IMG/VR virus record: IMGVR_UViG_3300045988_131228
Coordinates: 109,272 to 173,271 of that record
Source: a virus
Reading direction: 5' to 3' (one strand)
Length of the DNA: 64,000 nt
Part shown: in pieces, positions 3,887 to 37,359 of the stretch
Layout: each line of letters opens with the position of its first letter
Position numbering within the stretch: position 1 is the first letter of the stretch
Translations under genes and position numbers: made by a program
The notes under the pieces: generated by a model
Seen by the model: the letters and a program-made list of their open reading frames with translations, nothing else
Told to the model about the DNA's origin: nothing
Database searches by the model: none

Positions 3887-5860
3887 TTAATTTAATAGTT
3901 GCATAAATTGTTCTTCATTGATAATTTGCACTCCCAATGATTTTGCTTTCTTGTTCTTACTGGAAGAAGATTCAATATCATTATTAATCAACGCAAATGT
4001 CTTAGCCGATACAGAACCAGATACTTTACCGCCATTTGATTCAATAATAGATTTCAGTTCATCTCTATTACTGTATTTCTCTAATGATCCTGTAATAACG
4101 AATGTTTTTCCTTGTAAGGTATTTTGAGCATTATTAGACTCACTAGGAATTTTAAATGTAAATTCTTTACTCAATTCAAAAACTTTATTCATGTGTGTTA
4201 TGGCAAATTTTTGAATATTATTACTTGCAACTACACCGATACCATCTACTTTAAGATTCCAAAAATATCCATATCCACAAGAGAAACAATGATAAAATTC
4301 ATCAAAGTTATATTTAAAATGTTTAGCAATATCTTTACTTGCACTTTTGCCAATCATGGGTACGGAAAGTGCATAAATAAATCTGTTAAGTGTAGTTTCT
4401 TTGCTCTTTTCAATAGATTCTAACAACTTATCTACTGATTTTTTACCAAATCCATCAAGACCATACATTTTCCCTTTATAATCGGATAGATGATAAATAC
4501 TCTTAATGGAATCTAACCATTCAAGAGAAATAAATTTCTCAAGTGTAGCTTCTGACAATCCGTCAATATTCAGTGCATTCCTACTTACTGCATGAACAAG
4601 TTTACCTAATAATTTACCTTGACAATCATCATTCATACACATGAGAACTTCTGAATCATTTTCTTTTACAATTTTAGTTTCTCCACCACAAATAGGACAT
4701 TTATCTGGAATTGTAAAATTATTAGATTTATCAATACTATCATGTACTTTGGGGATAACTTTATTTGAGCGATATACTCTGATTCTGTCACCGATACCAA
4801 GAGATAATTTCTTGATATAAGAAATGTTATGTAATGTAGCTCTGGTAGTAATTGCACCATCTAAATCAATAGGTTCAAATATTGCTACTGGGTTAATCAA
4901 TCCTGTCTTAGAAGTATTCCATTCAATATCTTTTAGTACAGTTTCATATAATTGATCTTCATATTTATATGCAATGGAATGTCTAAAGAATTTATCAGTC
5001 TTGCCTAATGATTCTCCATAATCGTAATCATCATATGTCATTACTGCACCGTCATATGGAATATTGTTCTCATCAGCAACATCTTTAATTGTATCTAATA
5101 CAGTTTGGGTATTTTCGCATCCTATATATGGAATCATTGGAACTCTTTCAAATCCACACTTTTCTGCATTTAGCAAATCTTCATAAACAGATTTATGTTC
5201 AAATCCTTTAATAACACGCCAAGCAATAAATCTCATATTTCTTTGTGCAGCTTCGTTACTATCTAATAAAAGTAATGAGCCAGATACTAGATTTCTTGGA
5301 TGTTTATATTTTTTATCTGTATCTTTAATGTTTTCATTAATTTTATTGAATGTGTCCCATCCAATAATCGTTTCTCCATCAACAATTAACTCATCATAAT
5401 ATGGGATTTTCTTTGGAATATTTTTGATTGTTAATACATTTTGGAGAACATCTGTACCTTCATAACCATTACCTCTAGTAACAGCACTTACTAATTCTCC
5501 ATGAATATACTTTAATGTCGTACTAAGACCATCACATTTCACAGATACAATACACTGTTTATTTCCTGCAAATTGTTTCAAATCGTTAATAGATTTTGTC
5601 TTGTCGAGCGATAACATCAAATGATCAAGTTTAACTTCATTCAATTTATCTGATACGGTATATCCAACGTTTTGAGTAGGACTGTTTGGAAAGATGATGT
5701 TTTCTTGATTTTCCAACATCTGTAATTCTTCATATTTTTTATCCCAGTCATAATCAGACATAATTGGTGTACTTGTGTAATATGCAATAGAAGCATTATT
5801 TAGTTCTTCAATCAAACTTTTCATCTTTTCAATACGTTCATATCTACTTTTTATTCCCAT
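3887..5860 (-). CDS. ligA: NAD-dependent DNA ligase
   Basis: 657 aa; adenylation KxDG (VKCDGLS), Zn finger CPICGG..C..C, HhH region, C-terminal BRCT (GKTFVITGSL). Confidence 0.95.
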   Translation of the reverse strand: MGIKSRYERIEKMKSLIEELNNASIAYYTSTPIMSDYDWDKKYEELQMLENQENIIFPNSPTQNVGYTVSDKLNEVKLDHLMLSLDKTKSINDLKQFAGNKQCIVSVKCDGLSTTLKYIHGELVSAVTRGNGYEGTDVLQNVLTIKNIPKKIPYYDELIVDGETIIGWDTFNKINENIKDTDKKYKHPRNLVSGSLLLLDSNEAAQRNMRFIAWRVIKGFEHKSVYEDLLNAEKCGFERVPMIPYIGCENTQTVLDTIKDVADENNIPYDGAVMTYDDYDYGESLGKTDKFFRHSIAYKYEDQLYETVLKDIEWNTSKTGLINPVAIFEPIDLDGAITTRATLHNISYIKKLSLGIGDRIRVYRSNKVIPKVHDSIDKSNNFTIPDKCPICGGETKIVKENDSEVLMCMNDDCQGKLLGKLVHAVSRNALNIDGLSEATLEKFISLEWLDSIKSIYHLSDYKGKMYGLDGFGKKSVDKLLESIEKSKETTLNRFIYALSVPMIGKSASKDIAKHFKYNFDEFYHCFSCGYGYFWNLKVDGIGVVASNNIQKFAITHMNKVFELSKEFTFKIPSESNNAQNTLQGKTFVITGSLEKYSNRDELKSIIESNGGKVSGSVSAKTFALINNDIESSSSKNKKAKSLGVQIINEEQFMQLLN

Positions 5861-33520: not shown

Positions 33521-34105
33521 TTACATATTATCTAAAGCTTCAACAAATTCGCTACCACAATCACAAAATGTATAAATCATAGATTTCATAAGTCCCCAAG
33601 ACATTCCTGAGTGACCTTGATTCTTCATTACTTCAATACCTGCGACAATAGAATTATCCTTAACAGTTTTAATAATATCTAAACATTGACCTAACTCCAT
33701 TCCTTCGTACAGATCACCTAATCTAATAGGTACGCATCTATCCCATTCGTCCCATTTGTCTTGTGATAAAACTTTATGTCCTTCTTTAATCCAATATTTT
33801 GTTAGTTCTGGAATTTTCTTTTTATGTTCTTCTTCTCTTCTGATTAAATCTTGTCTCATTTTTTCTTGTTCATCTTTAAATTCTTTAAATGTTTTACCAA
33901 TACATTCAACATACGCTTCATCTACTGTCATATCAGATGTTAATTTGTGACCATTAAATTCTCCAAAATATTTTTTACCAGTAGATTCTGCCTTACTATG
34001 CAGTAATTTAACTGAATCTTTAATGGATAATCCACAATCAAAGTCAATTTTAATATAATCCATATATTCATTCCTCTCTTTCCACAGATGAAAGTTTACT
34101 TTCAT
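33521..34105 (-). CDS. hypothetical protein; probable start ATG 34063
   Basis: ORF track; SD GAGAGGA precedes the internal ATG (MDYIKIDF..). Confidence 0.55.
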   Translation of the reverse strand: MKVNFHLWKERNEYMDYIKIDFDCGLSIKDSVKLLHSKAESTGKKYFGEFNGHKLTSDMTVDEAYVECIGKTFKEFKDEQEKMRQDLIRREEEHKKKIPELTKYWIKEGHKVLSQDKWDEWDRCVPIRLGDLYEGMELGQCLDIIKTVKDNSIVAGIEVMKNQGHSGMSWGLMKSMIYTFCDCGSEFVEALDNM

Positions 34106-34109
34106 CTGT
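34084..34109. repeat. best copy of the TGAAA-N6-TTTCA junction element: 11-bp arms ACAGATGAAAG / CTTTCATCTGT, loop TTTA
   Basis: Read directly from line 34081. Confidence 0.8.
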
Positions 34110-34368
34110 TAATTTTTGGTTGCCCTGTAATTTCTCTCAAACAATCATTCCAACCTTTAACATTTCCATTAAATATTTCTCCACAATTTTTCTTACTAGG
34201 TAATTCTTTCAATGGACACCACTCTGGACGACTATTATTTTCTTCTACATTGCTACATATTTCTCTTTTATTGTAATAACAAGATATTGAACCATCCATA
34301 TCCAAAACACACAAATTACAGTCAAGACATTTTTCTGGTGTATCTATTACCAATACCGATTTTCGCAT
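34102..34368 (-). CDS. Cys-rich small protein (88 aa)
   Basis: ORF track; CLDCNLC..C..C..WCPL. Confidence 0.55.
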   Translation of the reverse strand: MRKSVLVIDTPEKCLDCNLCVLDMDGSISCYYNKREICSNVEENNSRPEWCPLKELPSKKNCGEIFNGNVKGWNDCLREITGQPKINR

Positions 34369-34607
34369 TTAAGCACCTCTTCTTTTAGTTCCTGCACTAC
34401 AATATTTGTATCAATCATGTTGCATGTGTTATTGATTTCAAGTCTTTCTCTAATTCGTTCCACAAACTTATCAATAATTCCATTTTTGATTTTTTCATCA
34501 TGATTTCGCATCCATCCACTACCTTGTAAGAAAGAAACGCAGATTTCATTATTCAGTTTCATTCGCTTCACCTTTCTACACATACCACGCCCAAATCGGA
34601 TTAACAT
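34347..34607 (-). CDS. hypothetical phage protein (86 aa)
   Basis: ORF track. Confidence 0.5.
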   Translation of the reverse strand: MLIRFGRGMCRKVKRMKLNNEICVSFLQGSGWMRNHDEKIKNGIIDKFVERIRERLEINNTCNMIDTNIVVQELKEEVLKCENRYW

Positions 34608-34851
34608 TCATTTTTGGTGCGTTGCATTTTTTCCTAATTCTTTTATGCTTTTTAGCATTTTTCTCGATATAGCCGCCTCGTATTTTAATTCCTCTTTTTA
34701 TATCCCTGTAGGCTTCCATTATTGGACTGTATGCCTGTTCAACAAGATATCCGCATCTTTCACACGATCCGTGGCGTTCAACTATTCCAAAATAGTACTC
34801 TGAGAAACTAATATATTCATAATCATTTGATCCGCAAATAGGACAGTTCAT
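34576..34851 (-). CDS. zinc-ribbon protein (91 aa)
   Basis: CPICGS..CERCG. Confidence 0.55.
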   Translation of the reverse strand: MNCPICGSNDYEYISFSEYYFGIVERHGSCERCGYLVEQAYSPIMEAYRDIKRGIKIRGGYIEKNAKKHKRIRKKCNAPKMNVNPIWAWYV

Positions 34852-35105
34852 TCAGCTCCACCACCTTTTACAATATCAATGGCTCTATCAATTGTATTTG
34901 CAATATTTTTGTAAGCACAGTCTTTATCGGCATCACCCGTATTTGCGATTGTTAAAAAGTATCTCATTTTTAATTCTTTTAACTGCTCTACAACCTTGTC
35001 TACATCAAAAGCTGTCGACTGTTCATCAATTACTGCACCTATTGCAAGATCTATATCTGAAATACCAAGTGAATCAATTGTTTTATCAGCATCTATTAAT
35101 CTCAT
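34848..35105 (-). CDS. hypothetical phage protein (85 aa)
   Basis: ORF track. Confidence 0.55.
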   Translation of the reverse strand: MRLIDADKTIDSLGISDIDLAIGAVIDEQSTAFDVDKVVEQLKELKMRYFLTIANTGDADKDCAYKNIANTIDRAIDIVKGGGAE

Positions 35106-35185
35106 TTTTTATTTCTCCCAATCAATATACATCCACTAAGTAACATCATAAACAACAATTCTACAATTACTGTAAATCCATCCAT

Positions 35186-35365
35186 TTATTCTTCTCCATA
35201 CATACAAATTTCACACATATATTTACATTTCCCACAATGAGAATCATACCATTTGTTAAATTCATCTGTTTTTATTTCATGTGTAATATTTGTTTTTAGC
35301 CAATATTCATCATACTTGAATCCGCATATATCATGCATGTCCATATTATATAAATTCTTATTCAT
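35186..35365 (-). CDS. Cys-rich small protein (59 aa)
   Basis: Own translation: MNKNLYNMDMHDICGFKYDEYWLKTNITHEIKTDEFNKWYDSHCGKCKYMCEICMYGEE. Confidence 0.45.
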   Translation of the reverse strand: MNKNLYNMDMHDICGFKYDEYWLKTNITHEIKTDEFNKWYDSHCGKCKYMCEICMYGEE

Positions 35366-35382
35366 ATTTTTACCTTATCTAA

Positions 35383-35601
35383 TTACCTTGTTTCTTCTAA
35401 ACCTAATTCTCTTTGCTTCTCTGCAATTCTTAATGGAATATATAATTTATGATACTCTTTCCTACATACATCACAATCACCATATCCATGTCCCCAACAC
35501 CAATCACAGAACTTATCAAATTGCTTCTTTAATGCATCAGAAGAATCTGTATTTGCAAATCCTTCCCAGATGATTTCTGTTACAAAACTTATGTCACTCA
35601 C
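35383..35601 (-). CDS. Cys-rich small protein (72 aa)
   Basis: ORF track; CDWCWGHGYGDCDVC. Confidence 0.5.
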   Translation of the reverse strand: MSDISFVTEIIWEGFANTDSSDALKKQFDKFCDWCWGHGYGDCDVCRKEYHKLYIPLRIAEKQRELGLEETR

Positions 35602-35628
35602 CCTTTCTTCACAAATGAAAGACGCATT

Positions 35629-35811
35629 TTATCCACGAAATATACCTATTCCATCGACACATTTACTACAATGATTGTTTGTACATGGTCTTAATCCTGC
35701 TTGATACAATAAACATTCGGAACATGCAGAAGGTACAAAGCCAATTCTTTCAGCTTTTGATCTCACTTCTTTCATTGTATTTCTATTTCTTGCCTTGACT
35801 GTTTCACTCAT
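35629..35811 (-). CDS. Cys-rich 60-aa peptide directly downstream of the radical SAM gene
   Basis: ORF track; basic N-terminal half, then ..SACSECLLYQAGLRPCTNNHCSKCVDG.. (5 Cys). Confidence 0.5.
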   Translation of the reverse strand: MSETVKARNRNTMKEVRSKAERIGFVPSACSECLLYQAGLRPCTNNHCSKCVDGIGIFRG

Positions 35812-35821
35812 ATTGTTCTTT

Positions 35822-36775
35822 TCAACTCTTAATCACTTTCATATTTTTATTCCAACTACCTGAAATCGTACCGTCTGGATGAATAATAAATTCTCTACAA
35901 ACATGATCATCTTCTATTTTCTCAACTTCACTTAACATTTTCATATTTGAATAACTAAAAGTAATTAATGTATCTTTGTATTTCCATATTTCATATACAT
36001 AGTAATCTTGAATTGTTTGTTCTACTAACTCAAAATGATTATATGCATATTCAAGAATCTCATTGTATAACTTCTCTTTATCGTCATATTTAATACCACT
36101 ATGATCGCTCAACTTCATAAGTTTTCTAAAAGATAAATCATCTGCAAACGAATATGCATCTATCATTTCTAATACATCTTCAATTGTATTTGCATCACAT
36201 AATACACATTGCAATCTCATTTTTGTTTCAACTAATTTGCCTTTAATACATTTTAAATCAAATAAGGAAGGCATATATGTATTAAAAATTTCATTATTTC
36301 TCTTATCAGAAATTGCATGACGACTAATATCTACAAAATCAAACAATCCATCAATTTTATCAAGATTATCTTCTAAATATTTACCATTTGTATTCATTGT
36401 AAGAAATTTAATATTATGATTTCTTAATACATCACATAATTTATCAAATTCCTTAAACAACAATGGCTCGCCACCTGTAACGGAAACTGAATATAAAATG
36501 CCAGCATTTTCCATCTCAGTTAACATTTCATCAACTTGTTTTACGAAATACTCTGCATTTTCGCAACGTTCAGCATTCTGCTCTACGCAGAAAAAACATT
36601 TTGCATTACACACATCAGTTAATTTTAGATGTAAATGCCATAGCCACTCGTTTCTTTCTACTAAAACTTTATTACCGAATAAATTTACTTCTATTTTATC
36701 ATCATAGGTTATTGGCAACTTTTCAACATTACACTTATGAATATAATCTTTTATATCTTTAATTTGCACAAACAT
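35822..36775 (-). CDS. radical SAM enzyme (MoaA/PqqE-like core, no SPASM Cys cluster seen)
   Basis: CxxxCxxC (CNAKCFFC) and GGEPLL (VTGGEPLLF) motifs; 317 aa. Confidence 0.8.
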   Translation of the reverse strand: MFVQIKDIKDYIHKCNVEKLPITYDDKIEVNLFGNKVLVERNEWLWHLHLKLTDVCNAKCFFCVEQNAERCENAEYFVKQVDEMLTEMENAGILYSVSVTGGEPLLFKEFDKLCDVLRNHNIKFLTMNTNGKYLEDNLDKIDGLFDFVDISRHAISDKRNNEIFNTYMPSLFDLKCIKGKLVETKMRLQCVLCDANTIEDVLEMIDAYSFADDLSFRKLMKLSDHSGIKYDDKEKLYNEILEYAYNHFELVEQTIQDYYVYEIWKYKDTLITFSYSNMKMLSEVEKIEDDHVCREFIIHPDGTISGSWNKNMKVIKS

Positions 36776-36810
36776 AAATATCTCTCCAATTCTTTCAATA
36801 AAAACACATT

Positions 36811-37323
36811 TTATTTATTAATAAGTAATTCTTTTGGACAATAAATAATTCTCTTTCCTGCTTTTTGAGCTTTACGAATGGTAGACCAAACACCGCCAGA
36901 CTTATTACCATCCCAAATTGCTAGTAAGACATCACACTTATCAACTATGTATTGATCTCTTACGTTATCACAGCCTTTATAAAATTTATCTGATAATTCA
37001 ACCCATTCAGTTGCTTTTAGCTTTAAAAATTTATAATATTTATGTGATGAGTTATAATCTTTACAAGGAAGAATACAGTGTAATTTAATGCTATTTATGT
37101 AATGCATTGACACTCCTGCAATCGCAAATGCAATATCACTCCCAGAAGCCATTCCTGTATATAAATCAAGTGGTTCATTATTATCTGCACAAGTCTTTAT
37201 AAATTTACTCAATTCATCTATAATCCAAAACTGAATTGGAGTCCATTTTTCATCTGTTTCATCTTCTGGTAAACCTAATCTTTGATTTCTGTGTCCTGTT
37301 ATTCCAACTTTCATTTTACGCAC
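36811..37323 (-). CDS. SLOG-superfamily protein, YpsA/DUF1273-like; probable start ATG 37314
   Basis: MKVGITGHR.., GMASGSD, and C-terminal IWDG..SGGVW..I..A..GK..I pattern; SD GAGAGGTG before ATG 37314. Confidence 0.5.
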   Translation of the reverse strand: MRKMKVGITGHRNQRLGLPEDETDEKWTPIQFWIIDELSKFIKTCADNNEPLDLYTGMASGSDIAFAIAGVSMHYINSIKLHCILPCKDYNSSHKYYKFLKLKATEWVELSDKFYKGCDNVRDQYIVDKCDVLLAIWDGNKSGGVWSTIRKAQKAGKRIIYCPKELLINK

Positions 37324-37359
37324 CTCTCATTTTTTGTCCTTGAAACTGCCGTTTTAACT

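What the first reader, a model, noticed from the sequence alone, without database searches (positions are those of the whole stretch)
35383..36775. Radical SAM enzyme followed by Cys-rich mini-proteins: RiPP-like or cofactor/nucleotide-modification cassette in a phage
35822..36775 has the CxxxCxxC and GGEPLL motifs of the MoaA/PqqE-type radical SAM core, with no obvious C-terminal SPASM cysteine cluster. Ten nt downstream is a 60-aa peptide. Its N-terminal half is basic and leader-like, and its C-terminal core is Cys-rich (SACSECLLYQAGLRPCTNNHCSKCVDG). After that comes a 72-aa protein with CDWCWGHGYGDCDVC.

A maturase followed by a small Cys-rich peptide is the layout of sactipeptide, ranthipeptide and SCIFF-type RiPP loci. 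Those maturases normally carry SPASM domains, so this may be a different chemistry. The phage does not encode the usual radical SAM partners in this window: it has no NrdD/NrdG pair (its RNR is class II) and no queuosine genes.
Basis: partly seen in the sequence, partly recalled or inferred. Interest (0 to 1): 0.65.

Follow-up and report, generated by a model that had tools for sequence, protein, structure and literature searches.

The report
Orphan phage radical SAM gene cassette
This gut-phage gene encodes a real but uncharacterised radical SAM enzyme that moves between phages as a single-gene cassette. The cysteine-rich mini-proteins beside it are unrelated zinc-ribbon-type proteins, so this is not a peptide-natural-product locus. 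Its wider relatives sit in NAD+ salvage operons, which hints at nucleotide/NAD chemistry.

Summary
The enzyme (35822..36775, minus strand) is a confident single-[4Fe-4S] radical SAM protein. It has only three invariant Cys, no SPASM/twitch cluster and no RRE. It reaches no curated family cut-off (MoaA, viperin, NrdG, QueE).

- pep60 is absent from all 32 close IMG/VR loci that carry the enzyme (82-97% identity).
- All three loci that carry pep60 have it directly after the SLOG gene, with no such enzyme.
- The radical SAM gene is a clean ~1.0-kb single-gene insertion between SLOG and pep60.
- Across 73 loci the downstream gene takes 29 unrelated forms. Cys-rich ones are not enriched over a ~10% background of CxxC mini-proteins.

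The family is compact and almost entirely phage-borne, from ~40-kb temperate to ~170-kb SPbeta-like gut phages, with no obligatory partner. Its sister clade is a pair of paralogues that lie in tandem inside NAD+ salvage operons. Some solo members lie beside NARP1-type, NadE or NMNAT-like genes.

Best reading: a stand-alone nucleotide-directed radical SAM enzyme, possibly tied to NAD+/ADP-ribose conflict. The substrate is unknown.

The parts
35822..36775 (-). Stand-alone single-cluster radical SAM enzyme (317 aa), the 'solo' family. Layout: N-terminal ~45-aa beta extension; core with C56/C60/C63 and GGEP at 101-104; family-specific C-terminal beta domain with QDYYVYE, FSYSNM and REFIxHPxGxxSGSW.
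   Evidence: ORF and motifs. Pfam PF04055 48 bits against a 29.5 cut-off. All NCBIfam hits far below cut-off. 57 invariant positions in 44 sequences. AF2 pLDDT 94, pTM 0.90. Foldseek to MoaA, SuiB and viperin-like at TM 0.5-0.6.
35820..36822 (-). Boundaries of the mobile single-gene cassette. It is present here but replaced by 27 bp in L037, where SLOG abuts pep60.
   Evidence: blastn of the window against L037, L038, L039, L030, L029 and L001.
36782..36787 (-). GGAGAG ribosome-binding site of the radical SAM gene, 6 nt before its ATG, so the gene has its own translation signal.
   Evidence: Sequence read directly.
36811..37314 (-). Upstream neighbour: probable YpsA-like SLOG protein. The likely start is the ATG at 37314; the ORF listing gives the GTG at 37323. 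It is not a conserved partner of the enzyme (2 of 32 close loci).
   Evidence: Pfam YpsA E=1.3e-5, 25.7 bits, just below the 27.7 cut-off, aligned over the full length; phrog_289. Co-occurrence table. Start and RBS. No PDB sequence match.
35629..35811 (-). pep60: 60-aa basic protein with CxxC-N14-CxxC (zinc-ribbon-like) plus a non-conserved fifth Cys. It is an independent module that travels with SLOG, not with the enzyme.
   Evidence: ORF. Homologues in L037-L039 lie directly after SLOG. C43 is Gly in L037. Replaced by an unrelated 81-aa gene in L030.
35383..35601 (-). pep72: 72-aa protein with a DnaJ-type CxxCxGxG...CxxC zinc-centre motif. It is unrelated to the enzyme and is found with pep59 in L030 and L038.
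   Evidence: ORF. Present in 2 of 32 close loci, at +311 and +1332 nt. Present in L038 without the enzyme.
35186..35365 (-). pep59: a third CxxC mini-protein (HCGKCKYMCEIC). It belongs to a local cluster of five such genes between 34102 and 35811.
37341..37356 (-). Junction palindrome TAAAACGGCAGTTTCA upstream of SLOG. With its partner at 35616..35631 it brackets SLOG, the radical SAM gene and pep60.
   Evidence: Sequence read directly. Element family noted in earlier finding e1-3647085.
35616..35631 (-). Junction palindrome TAAAATGCGTCTTTCA. It overlaps the pep60 stop codon and lies just upstream of pep72.
   Evidence: Sequence read directly.

Best explanation
The gene at 35822..36775 encodes a functional, stand-alone radical SAM enzyme with one [4Fe-4S] cluster. 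It belongs to a compact, uncharacterised and almost exclusively phage-borne family.

Shown: the gene is a self-contained ~1-kb cassette with its own ribosome-binding site. It has been shuffled into the early or accessory regions of many Firmicutes gut phages. Here it is inserted between a YpsA-like SLOG gene and pep60. It has no obligatory phage-encoded partner.

Shown: it is not a peptide maturase for the adjacent Cys-rich ORFs. Those are ordinary zinc-ribbon-type mini-proteins, which are common in these phages.

Inferred: like its nearest characterised relatives (MoaA on GTP, viperin on CTP/UTP), it reductively cleaves SAM and abstracts a ribose hydrogen from a phosphorylated nucleotide supplied by the host.

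Inferred from gene context: the substrate lies in NAD+/ADP-ribose metabolism. That would make the enzyme an accessory, probably counter-defence, function for a phage whose own DNA ligase needs NAD+. I put this sub-claim at about 0.3 on its own.
For: Enzyme identity
- CxxxCxxC, GGEP, Pfam score above cut-off, and a confident AF2 partial-TIM-barrel model.
- 57 invariant positions across sequences down to 46% identity indicate purifying selection.

Cassette behaviour and lack of a partner
- Clean boundaries against the empty site in L037.
- 29 different downstream gene types in 73 loci.
- Present in ~40-kb temperate siphophages, ~80-kb phages and ~170-kb SPbeta-like phages.
- Only 3 of ~185,000 species genomes carry a copy at 36% identity or better (36-64%).

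Nucleotide substrate
- Best sequence and structure relatives are MoaA (1.5e-13) and viperin-like enzymes (4e-10), with pVip models matching at 1e-15.
- Basic residues that bind phosphate in MoaA (K163), and from memory in viperin, are kept as invariant R187 and R217, alongside invariant R152, K51 and R294.

NAD+ link
- The family is the outgroup of two paralogues, rSAM2 and rSAM3 (support 100/99), that lie in tandem inside operons with Prs, NadD, NadE, PncA, PncB, CinA and NadK.
- 10 of 24 full-length cellular relatives have two or more core NAD genes within +-6 kb, against 0 of 56 control radical SAM loci (Fisher 1.2e-6).
- Solo members lie inside a NARP1-type PncA-Adps-[rSAM]-Namat-macro-NadE block (L009, 92% identical; Adps is 40% identical to that of SPbetaL1), directly after NadE (L041), or near NMNAT-like/isochorismatase genes (L161) or a PARP gene (L162).
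- The window's upstream neighbour is a YpsA-like SLOG. This clade is placed in the cADPR/NAD+ conflict network (PMC9503650).
- The phage encodes an NAD-dependent DNA ligase.
Against: No substrate has been shown, so everything functional rests on homology and gene context.

The NAD link is weak for the solo family itself:
- Only 7 of 70 loci, about 4 lineages, have a core NAD gene nearby.
- 80% of phage records carrying the enzyme, all of the ~80-kb group, and this phage itself encode no NAMPT/Prs/NadE-type gene.
- The Adps-Namat junction is a permissive insertion site that holds unrelated morons in L168, so L009 may be a coincidence.
- The solo family's invariant polar set (H47, H49, K51, E65, N128, Q189, Q256, D257, R294) differs from that of rSAM3, so it need not share a substrate with it.
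- NadA co-occurs with the tandem genes in 5 of 21 genomes.

RNA-repair genes (RNA ligase, RtcB, Thg1, Pnkp) recur nearby about as often as NAD genes do.

The lineages counted in the enrichment test are not phylogenetically independent.
Confidence: 0.45

Rival explanations
1. RiPP-like cassette. The enzyme would install thioether or other crosslinks in pep60 (or pep72 or pep59), acting as a SPASM-less sactipeptide/ranthipeptide-type maturase.
For: The enzyme is followed after 10 nt by a 60-aa peptide with a basic N-terminal half and a Cys-rich C-terminal half. pep60 homologues keep the N-terminal half and vary the Cys-rich half, a leader/core-like pattern. Foldseek lists SuiB, SkfB and CteB among the core matches. 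One other sub-lineage (L002-L008) also has Cys-rich genes downstream.
Against: pep60 is in 0 of 32 close loci that carry the enzyme. All three pep60-bearing loci lack this enzyme, and L037 has no radical SAM gene within +-4 kb. The enzyme is a clean insertion between SLOG and pep60. There are 29 unrelated downstream gene types, with no enrichment of Cys-rich ones against a 9.6% background (p=0.26). There are no auxiliary-cluster cysteines and no RRE, only a 45-aa beta extension. All RiPP-maturase NCBIfam scores are 24-35 bits against cut-offs of 265-650. C43 of pep60 is Gly in L037, which leaves a plain CxxC-N14-CxxC zinc-ribbon signature.
Confidence: 0.04
2. Viperin-like nucleotide dehydratase. 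The enzyme would convert an NTP to a 3'-deoxy-3',4'-didehydro chain terminator, used by the phage against host transcription or competing phages.
For: The core matches pVip models at 1e-15 and viperin-like structures at 4e-10, with TM about 0.5. It has a single cluster, as viperin does. The related tandem genes are followed by a P-loop kinase-like gene, as some pVips are.
Against: NF038283 scores 44 bits against a cut-off of 180. Only profile positions 4-165 of 257 match, so the viperin C-terminal substrate-binding part is missing and is replaced by an unrelated conserved domain. MoaA matches slightly better. No precedent was found in the searched literature for a phage using such a product.
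Confidence: 0.12
3. RNA or tRNA modification or repair enzyme, working alongside phage RNA-repair modules.
For: Thg1-like, RtcB, RNA ligase and Pnkp genes recur within a few kb in several lineages (L034-L036, L161, L162, L154). The same variable region in close relatives carries Thg1-like and weakly RlmN/Cfr-like radical SAM genes.
Against: No similarity to any RNA-modifying radical SAM family beyond the generic core. No RNA-binding domain (THUMP, PUA, TRAM or similar) was found. These modules are common in the accessory regions of large phages, and the enzyme also occurs in small phages without them.
Confidence: 0.12
4. Phage DNA base or sugar modification enzyme that protects the genome from restriction.
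For: It is located in early or replication regions, next to DNA methylases and a Lar-type anti-restriction gene in L163 and to replisome-organiser genes in L010-L032.
Against: There is no DNA-binding or base-flipping domain and no partner transferase or kinase genes. No known DNA-hypermodification pathway consists of a single radical SAM enzyme (own knowledge). The sister clade sits in NAD operons of cellular genomes.
Confidence: 0.07
5. Housekeeping-type enzyme: MoaA, QueE, or an NrdG/PflA-type activase, as some source annotations ('MoaA') imply.
For: JGI names some members MoaA. The best HMM hits are to MoaA.
Against: MoaA scores 61-64 bits against cut-offs of 284-325. NrdG scores 37 against 131, and QueE 26-31 against 206-260. 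There are no MoaA auxiliary-cluster cysteines, and MoaA K69/R71 are invariant Ser here. The genome has no MoaC, NrdD, glycyl-radical domain or QueC.
Confidence: 0.02

Closest known systems
MoaA (GTP 3',8-cyclase; PDB 1TV7/2FB3)
   Same: It is the best sequence and structure match: profile E=1.5e-13 over residues 46-248, and Foldseek TM 0.59. Both have a partial TIM barrel with CxxxCxxC, GGEP and TNG motifs. A basic residue sits at the MoaA K163 position (R187 here). Overall length is similar, and both have a C-terminal beta region closing the barrel.
   Different: There is no C-terminal auxiliary [4Fe-4S] cluster. MoaA's triphosphate-binding K69/R71 are invariant Ser96/Ser98 here, and R17 is His49. 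Scores are about 60 bits against cut-offs of 284-325. The genome has no MoaC. The C-terminal domain has its own invariant motifs.
Viperin / prokaryotic viperins (pVip)
   Same: Both are single-cluster radical SAM enzymes of about 300 aa. The core matches at 1e-15 (PADLOC pVip) and 4e-10 (PDB 7N7I). Both belong to virus-host conflict biology.
   Different: The viperin C-terminal extension, which binds the NTP, is not matched. NF038283 scores 44 bits against 180. This enzyme is encoded by the virus rather than the host.
SPASM/twitch RiPP maturases (SuiB, SkfB, CteB, SCIFF maturase)
   Same: The radical SAM core superposes at TM about 0.55-0.59. In this one genome a small Cys-rich ORF follows the enzyme.
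   Different: There is no SPASM or twitch cysteine set, no RRE, no conserved adjacent peptide, and all scores are far below cut-off.
Uncharacterised tandem radical SAM genes (rSAM1-rSAM2-rSAM3) of NAD+ salvage operons in uncultured Bacilli, Clostridia, Dojkabacteria, Bacteroidota and some phages
   Same: These are the true nearest relatives. They share full-length homology at 24-29% identity, including the N-terminal extension and the C-terminal domain signature (YY..E, E295, H299-P300, G306-S307-W308, R187, R217, S96/S98). The solo family branches just outside the rSAM2+rSAM3 pair.
   Different: The solo family is a single gene without rSAM1 or the kinase-like partner. It has its own invariant H47-x-H49-x-K51, E65, N128, Q189, Q256, D257 and R294. 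It is phage-borne and mostly not next to NAD genes. The function of the tandem genes is itself unknown, and they have no curated family.
NARP1 (Adps + Namat) phage NAD+ reconstitution pathway
   Same: One close family member (L009, 92% identical) lies between Adps-like and Namat-like genes, flanked by PncA, macro-domain and NadE genes. The proposed role in countering NAD+ depletion is analogous (bioRxiv 10.1101/2024.02.11.579819).
   Different: NARP1 is a two-enzyme, non-radical pathway. No radical SAM component is described in the NARP1/2/3 papers or in the viral NAD-ADPr survey. This phage has no Adps or Namat. The Adps-Namat junction tolerates unrelated inserts.

Membership tests
Radical SAM superfamily | CxxxCxxC cluster-binding motif | tested here: met
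   C56-NAK-C60-FF-C63, invariant in 44 sequences.
Radical SAM superfamily | Pfam PF04055 score above the gathering threshold | tested here: met
   48 bits against 29.5.
Radical SAM superfamily | GGE SAM-binding motif and partial (beta/alpha)6 TIM-barrel fold | tested here: met
   T100-GGEP is invariant. The AF2 model (pLDDT 94) matches MoaA, SuiB, viperin and PFL-AE cores at probability 1.00.
Radical SAM superfamily | Reductive SAM cleavage to 5'-deoxyadenosine | not testable with these tools
   Needs anaerobic biochemistry.
SPASM/twitch RiPP maturases (sactipeptide, ranthipeptide, SCIFF) | C-terminal auxiliary Fe-S cluster cysteines (SPASM CxxCxxxxxCxxxC or twitch) | tested here: not met
   Only C56, C60 and C63 are invariant. 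C190 is the only other near-invariant Cys.
SPASM/twitch RiPP maturases (sactipeptide, ranthipeptide, SCIFF) | RiPP recognition element (winged-helix domain of ~80-100 aa) | tested here: not met
   The N-terminal extension is only ~45 aa of beta strands in the AF2 model. No RRE Pfam hit.
SPASM/twitch RiPP maturases (sactipeptide, ranthipeptide, SCIFF) | Conserved co-located precursor peptide | tested here: not met
   pep60 is in 0 of 32 and pep72 in 2 of 32 close loci. There are 29 unrelated downstream gene types with no Cys-rich enrichment. pep60 occurs without the enzyme.
SPASM/twitch RiPP maturases (sactipeptide, ranthipeptide, SCIFF) | Curated NCBIfam score | tested here: not met
   WgkB 34.8 against 650, StsB 24 against 625, mycofactocin 33.7 against 265, ScmF 28.6 against 400.
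MoaA (GTP 3',8-cyclase) | Curated model score | tested here: not met
   TIGR02666 61 against 284; TIGR02668 63.6 against 325; NF001199 55.5 against 231.
MoaA (GTP 3',8-cyclase) | C-terminal second [4Fe-4S] cluster and GTP-binding residues R17, K69 and R71 | tested here: not met
   There are no conserved C-terminal Cys. The aligned residues are H49, S96 and S98. MoaA residue roles are from my own knowledge of the 2FB3 structure paper.
MoaA (GTP 3',8-cyclase) | Pathway partner MoaC in the same genome | tested here: not met
   No PF01967 match in the complete phage genome. The host could supply it.
Viperin / pVip | Curated model score and full-length match including the C-terminal extension | tested here: not met
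   NF038283 44 against 180. The PADLOC pVip match covers only profile positions 4-165 of 257.
NrdG / PflA glycyl-radical activases | Curated score and a glycyl-radical client enzyme | tested here: not met
   TIGR02495 37 against 131. No NrdD or Gly_radical match in the genome.
QueE (7-carboxy-7-deazaguanine synthase) | Curated score and the QueC/QueD pathway | tested here: not met
   TIGR03963 30.6 against 260; TIGR03365 26 against 206. No QueC in the genome. QueD and FolE were not searched.
NAD+-operon tandem radical SAM clade (rSAM2/rSAM3, uncharacterised) | Full-length homology including the C-terminal domain signature | tested here: met
   27% identity over about 300 aa, E=3.5e-22 to rSAM3. 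Shared invariant residues. Sister position in the tree.
NAD+-operon tandem radical SAM clade (rSAM2/rSAM3, uncharacterised) | Tandem arrangement with rSAM1 and a P-loop kinase-like gene inside an NAD salvage operon | tested here: not met
   The window has a single gene, and the phage genome has no NAD salvage genes. Only about 4 solo lineages are NAD-linked.

The most novel reading that the evidence does not exclude
The solo enzyme is a new kind of phage counter-defence enzyme and the first radical SAM component of the NAD+/ADP-ribose virus-host conflict. It would perform radical chemistry on the ribose of NAD+, ADPR, NMN or a cyclic-ADPR immune signal. The outcome could be a salvageable precursor, destruction of a signal, or an NADase-resistant or NADase-inhibiting analogue. 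Its cellular cousins (the rSAM1-3 trio plus kinase) would then represent an undescribed radical branch of NAD+ metabolism in anaerobes with reduced genomes.
Probability: 0.2. Interest if true: 0.85.

Novelty: new variant of a known kind. Interest (0 to 1): 0.42.

Why it matters
As a RiPP locus it does not matter, because that reading is wrong. Two things remain of interest.

1. It defines a compact, highly conserved, almost purely viral radical SAM family. The family has a new C-terminal domain and a distinctive invariant HxHxK strand. It is spread as a single-gene cassette through phages of human-gut Firmicutes, and no substrate or curated family is assigned to it.

2. Its only informative relatives are three tandem radical SAM genes embedded in NAD+ salvage operons of diverse anaerobes, an association that the literature searched here does not describe. 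If the family acts on NAD+/ADP-ribose-type nucleotides, it would add radical chemistry to the fast-moving field of NAD+-centred phage defence and counter-defence. It could also reveal an unknown step of NAD+ metabolism.

The case is also a useful caution. In these phages about 10% of small genes are CxxC mini-proteins, so finding a radical SAM gene next to a Cys-rich peptide is not evidence for a RiPP.

Tried and rejected
- GenBank phages: blastn and tblastn found no close relatives, only core-level hits annotated MoaA or hypothetical.
- Foldseek against PDB and BFVD returned only generic radical SAM core matches at TM 0.5-0.6. Nothing matched the C-terminal domain.
- PHROGs gave only an unnamed 'radical SAM domain' family, phrog_13987.
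- PADLOC matched pVip over the core only.
- Glycyl-radical activase, QueE and MoaA roles were rejected from scores and from the absence of NrdD, Gly_radical, QueC and MoaC in the complete genome.
- I looked for a conserved partner by clustering all flanking ORFs across 42 loci. None exists for the solo family.
- I tested whether the tandem-gene genomes lack NadA, which would suggest a de novo replacement. It is absent in 16 of 21 but present in 5, so the test is inconclusive.
- I tested genome-wide co-occurrence with NAMPT-family genes.
- I first treated L009's Adps-[rSAM]-Namat order as in-operon evidence. I then down-weighted it because L168 carries four unrelated morons at the same junction and Phass-1 has the plain operon.
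- The SLOG neighbour has no PDB match by single sequence.
- Literature searches for a radical SAM enzyme in NARP or NAD salvage contexts found nothing.
Full report
**Observation**

- The 317-aa protein (35822..36775) carries C56-NAK-C60-FF-C63 and T100-GGEPLL.
- pep60 (35629..35811) starts 10 nt after its stop.
- pep72 (35383..35601) follows, and a third Cys-rich ORF, pep59, lies at 35186..35365.

The window is the right-hand 64 kb of a complete 173,271-bp phage genome with direct terminal repeats. It has about 30% G+C, and nearly all genes are on one strand. Earlier notes relate the phage to SPbeta-like phages.

**The enzyme**

Pfam calls Radical_SAM at 48 bits against a cut-off of 29.5. Every curated NCBIfam model is far below its cut-off:

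| Model | Score (bits) | Cut-off |
|---|---|---|
| MoaA | 61-64 | 284-325 |
| Viperin | 44 | 180 |
| NrdG | 37 | 131 |
| QueE | 26-31 | 206-260 |
| RiPP maturases | 24-35 | 265-650 |

A search of 5.8 billion proteins found 164 relatives, all about 317 aa, unnamed or loosely called MoaA, down to 46% identity. In an alignment of 44 of them, 57 positions are invariant. Only three cysteines are invariant, so there is one cluster and no SPASM or twitch domain. The C-terminal third has its own motifs: QDYYVYE, FSYSNM and REFIxHPxGxxSGSW.

AlphaFold2 gives a confident model (pLDDT 94, pTM 0.90). It has a ~45-aa N-terminal beta extension, the radical SAM barrel, and a C-terminal beta domain. Foldseek finds only core-level matches at TM 0.5-0.6: MoaA, SuiB, viperin-like enzymes, SkfB and BlsE. 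A profile search of PDB sequences puts MoaA first (1.5e-13) and a viperin-like enzyme second (4e-10). PADLOC pVip models match only their first 165 of 257 positions.

In the MoaA alignment, the phosphate-binding K163 corresponds to invariant R187. K69 and R71 are invariant serines here, and R17 is H49. The roles of these MoaA residues are from my own knowledge.

**The pairing test**

In 32 IMG/VR loci encoding the enzyme at 82-97% identity:
- pep60 is found in none.
- pep72 is found in two, displaced by 311 and 1332 nt.
- The SLOG gene is found in two.

The reverse search found pep60 in three phages. In all three it lies directly after a 96-99% identical SLOG gene, with no copy of this enzyme.

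DNA alignment shows that window 36822..35820 (1003 bp, essentially just the gene and its GGAGAG ribosome-binding site) is replaced by 27 bp in L037. The pep60 module (35819..~35634) is in turn replaced by an unrelated 81-aa gene in L030. L037 has no radical SAM gene within 4 kb of pep60. There the fifth Cys of pep60 is a Gly, which leaves CxxC-N14-CxxC, a zinc-ribbon signature.

To allow for non-homologous precursors, I classified the gene immediately downstream in 73 family loci. There are 29 unrelated types. Four of the 22 small ones have two or more CxxC motifs, against 58 of 603 background small ORFs in the same loci (9.6%; Fisher p=0.26). In the window itself, 10 of 142 ORFs are such mini-proteins, and five of them cluster at 34102..35811.

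The adjacency is therefore a one-off juxtaposition. A mobile gene landed at the edge of a mini-protein cluster.

**What the small proteins are**

- pep60 is a basic protein with a zinc-ribbon-like Cys4. It has weak hits to the IS91 transposase zinc-binding domain, below cut-off.
- pep72 has a DnaJ-type CxxCxGxG...CxxC motif.
- pep59 has CxxC-x3-CxxC.

None has a family assignment. They are typical early-region phage mini-proteins, and their functions are unknown.

**Distribution**

The family is compact. About 20 clusters at 50% identity give strong full-length matches, and 39 reach E<=1e-30 among 1.84 billion representatives. It is essentially viral. Only three of ~185,000 species genomes hold a copy at 36% identity or better (36-64%).

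It occurs in ~170-kb SPbeta-like phages, ~80-kb phages and ~40-kb temperate siphophages, between the replication and packaging modules. It is always a single gene with changing neighbours. A 33-bp copy of its 3' end recurs on the far side of a 1.3-kb insertion in L001 and L029, which suggests junction-mediated cassette exchange. In the window, the SLOG gene, the radical SAM gene and pep60 lie between two copies of the phage's recurrent junction palindrome.

**The only functional lead**

Profile-based scans also recovered full-length relatives at 24-29% identity. In uncultured Bacilli, Clostridia, a Dojkabacteria genome, Bacteroidota, a Woesearchaeote and some phages, they occur as two or three tandem radical SAM genes:
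- rSAM1, about 225 aa
- rSAM2, about 321 aa
- rSAM3, about 340 aa

A P-loop kinase-like gene often follows. The tandem genes are embedded among Prs, NadD-like, NadE, PncA, PncB, CinA/PncC, NAD kinase, Nudix and ADP-ribosylglycohydrolase genes. None has a curated family.

A maximum-likelihood tree places the window's family just outside the rSAM2+rSAM3 sister pair (support 100/99). Ten of 24 full-length cellular relatives have two or more core NAD genes within 6 kb, against 0 of 56 control radical SAM loci from the same scan (Fisher 1.2e-6). The lineages are not independent, although several phyla are involved.

Within the solo family:
- L009 (92% identical) has PncA, Adps-like, [rSAM], a 113-aa gene, Namat-like, macro and NadE. 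Its Adps-like protein is 40% identical to that of Bacillus phage SPbetaL1 and 35% to FADO. Both phages were used experimentally for NARP1.
- L041 has NadE directly upstream.
- L135 and L141 have PncA and Prs-like genes 5-6 kb away.
- L161 has NMNAT-like and isochorismatase genes.
- L162 has a PARP-domain gene.

The window's own upstream neighbour is a probable YpsA-like SLOG protein. A survey of viral NAD+-ADPr systems assigns this clade to cADPR/NAD+ conflicts (PMC9503650). The phage also encodes an NAD-dependent DNA ligase.

**Caveats to that lead**

- Only 7 of 70 solo loci (about 4 lineages) have a core NAD gene nearby.
- Only 10 of 50 carrier phage records encode a NAMPT-family gene anywhere, and none of the ~80-kb group does.
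- This phage has no Prs, NAMPT, NadE, PncA or NadD homologue at all.
- The Adps-Namat junction carries four unrelated morons in L168, and Phass-1 has the plain operon, so L009 may reflect a permissive insertion site.
- RNA-repair genes recur nearby about as often as NAD genes do.
- The solo family's invariant polar residues (H47, H49, K51, E65, N128, Q189, Q256, D257, R294) differ from those of rSAM3, although the fold and C-terminal signature residues are shared.
- NadA is absent from 16 of 21 genomes with these genes but present in 5, so the clade is not a simple NadA substitute.

**Mechanism proposed**

Shown:
- It is a conserved single-cluster radical SAM enzyme.
- It is a single-gene cassette with no phage-encoded partner or client.
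- It is not coupled to the Cys-rich ORFs.

Inferred:
- It uses host reductant and SAM to generate a 5'-deoxyadenosyl radical.
- Like MoaA and viperin, it abstracts a ribose hydrogen from a phosphorylated nucleotide held by the invariant basic and polar residues that line the barrel.
- By context, the nucleotide is most plausibly from the NAD+/ADP-ribose family, and the role is accessory, probably counter-defence.

I put about 0.45 on the overall statement and about 0.3 on the NAD-specific part.

**Comparison and novelty**

It works most like MoaA and viperin. It fails the membership tests of both, and also those of the SPASM RiPP maturases, NrdG/PflA and QueE. Its real kin are the uncharacterised tandem genes of NAD operons.

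No radical SAM enzyme is mentioned in the NARP1, NARP2 or NARP3 papers or in the viral NAD-ADPr survey. A full-text search for radical SAM together with NAD salvage and nicotinamidase found nothing.

I rate it a new variant of a known kind: an orphan radical SAM subfamily with a new C-terminal domain. It is ordinary with respect to the RiPP claim. It is moderately interesting as a widespread phage enzyme with a testable NAD+ lead.

Noticed in passing
L043 2431-9786; L046 272-10970; L048 3405-12037 (also L044, L049, L051, L057): Cellular NAD+ salvage super-operons in uncultured Bacilli, Clostridia and a Dojkabacteria genome contain three tandem uncharacterised radical SAM genes (~225, ~321 and ~340 aa) plus an AAA_18 kinase-like gene. 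L043 also has a MiaB-like fourth radical SAM gene. They lie between Prs/NadD and CinA/NadK, with PncA, PncB, NadE, Nudix and ADP-ribosylglycohydrolase nearby. No curated family covers them.
   Followed up: partly
L038/L039 1709-3456; L039 5818-6705: Close relatives of this phage carry up to three other orphan radical SAM-like genes in the same variable region, directly upstream of the SLOG gene. They are 250 aa, 326 aa (weakly RlmN/Cfr-like, 44 bits) and 295 aa.
   Followed up: partly
L037 4176-5120; L038 4767-5639; L154 9862-10719; L161 8864-9667; L034 16389-16969: Thg1-like (tRNA-His guanylyltransferase family) genes recur in the accessory regions of these phages, often with RtcB, RNA ligase or Pnkp genes.
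   Followed up: no
window 3887..5860 (-): The phage encodes an NAD-dependent DNA ligase (LigA-type, with a BRCT domain), so its replication depends on the host NAD+ pool.
   Followed up: no
window 35820..35852; L001 and L029 8223-8255: The last 33 bp of the radical SAM gene recur on the far side of a 1.3-kb three-gene insertion in L001 and L029. This looks like a duplicated junction sequence used in cassette exchange.
   Followed up: no
window 37341..37356 and 35616..35631: Two copies of the phage's recurrent TAAAA-N6-TTTCA junction palindrome bracket the SLOG gene, the radical SAM gene and pep60. None lies between those three genes, and the second copy overlaps the pep60 stop codon.
   Followed up: partly
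window 34102..34368 (-): An 88-aa protein with CxxCxxC...C...WCP (ferredoxin-like spacing, 8 Cys) has relatives in 27 of 32 related loci. It has paralogous tandem copies in L038 and no family assignment. I could not tell whether it is a small Fe-S protein that could serve as an electron donor.
   Followed up: no
L168 5842-6716 (MT835544.1): A NARP1-type Adps-Namat pair is interrupted by four small unrelated genes, including an 89-aa zinc-ribbon protein. NARP1 operons in gut phages therefore tolerate moron insertion.
   Followed up: partly
L010-L032, 6974-8134: In the ~80-kb phage group the enzyme is always followed by a DUF4317 protein (386 aa, Pfam 3.5e-136) and then a replisome-organiser-like gene. 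This is a single lineage, so it is not independent evidence of linkage.
   Followed up: no
L133/L135/L141 4223-5891: In the 64%-identity group the enzyme lies directly downstream of what look, by eye, like an Avd-like four-helix-bundle gene and a reverse-transcriptase gene (a DGR-type pair).
   Followed up: no
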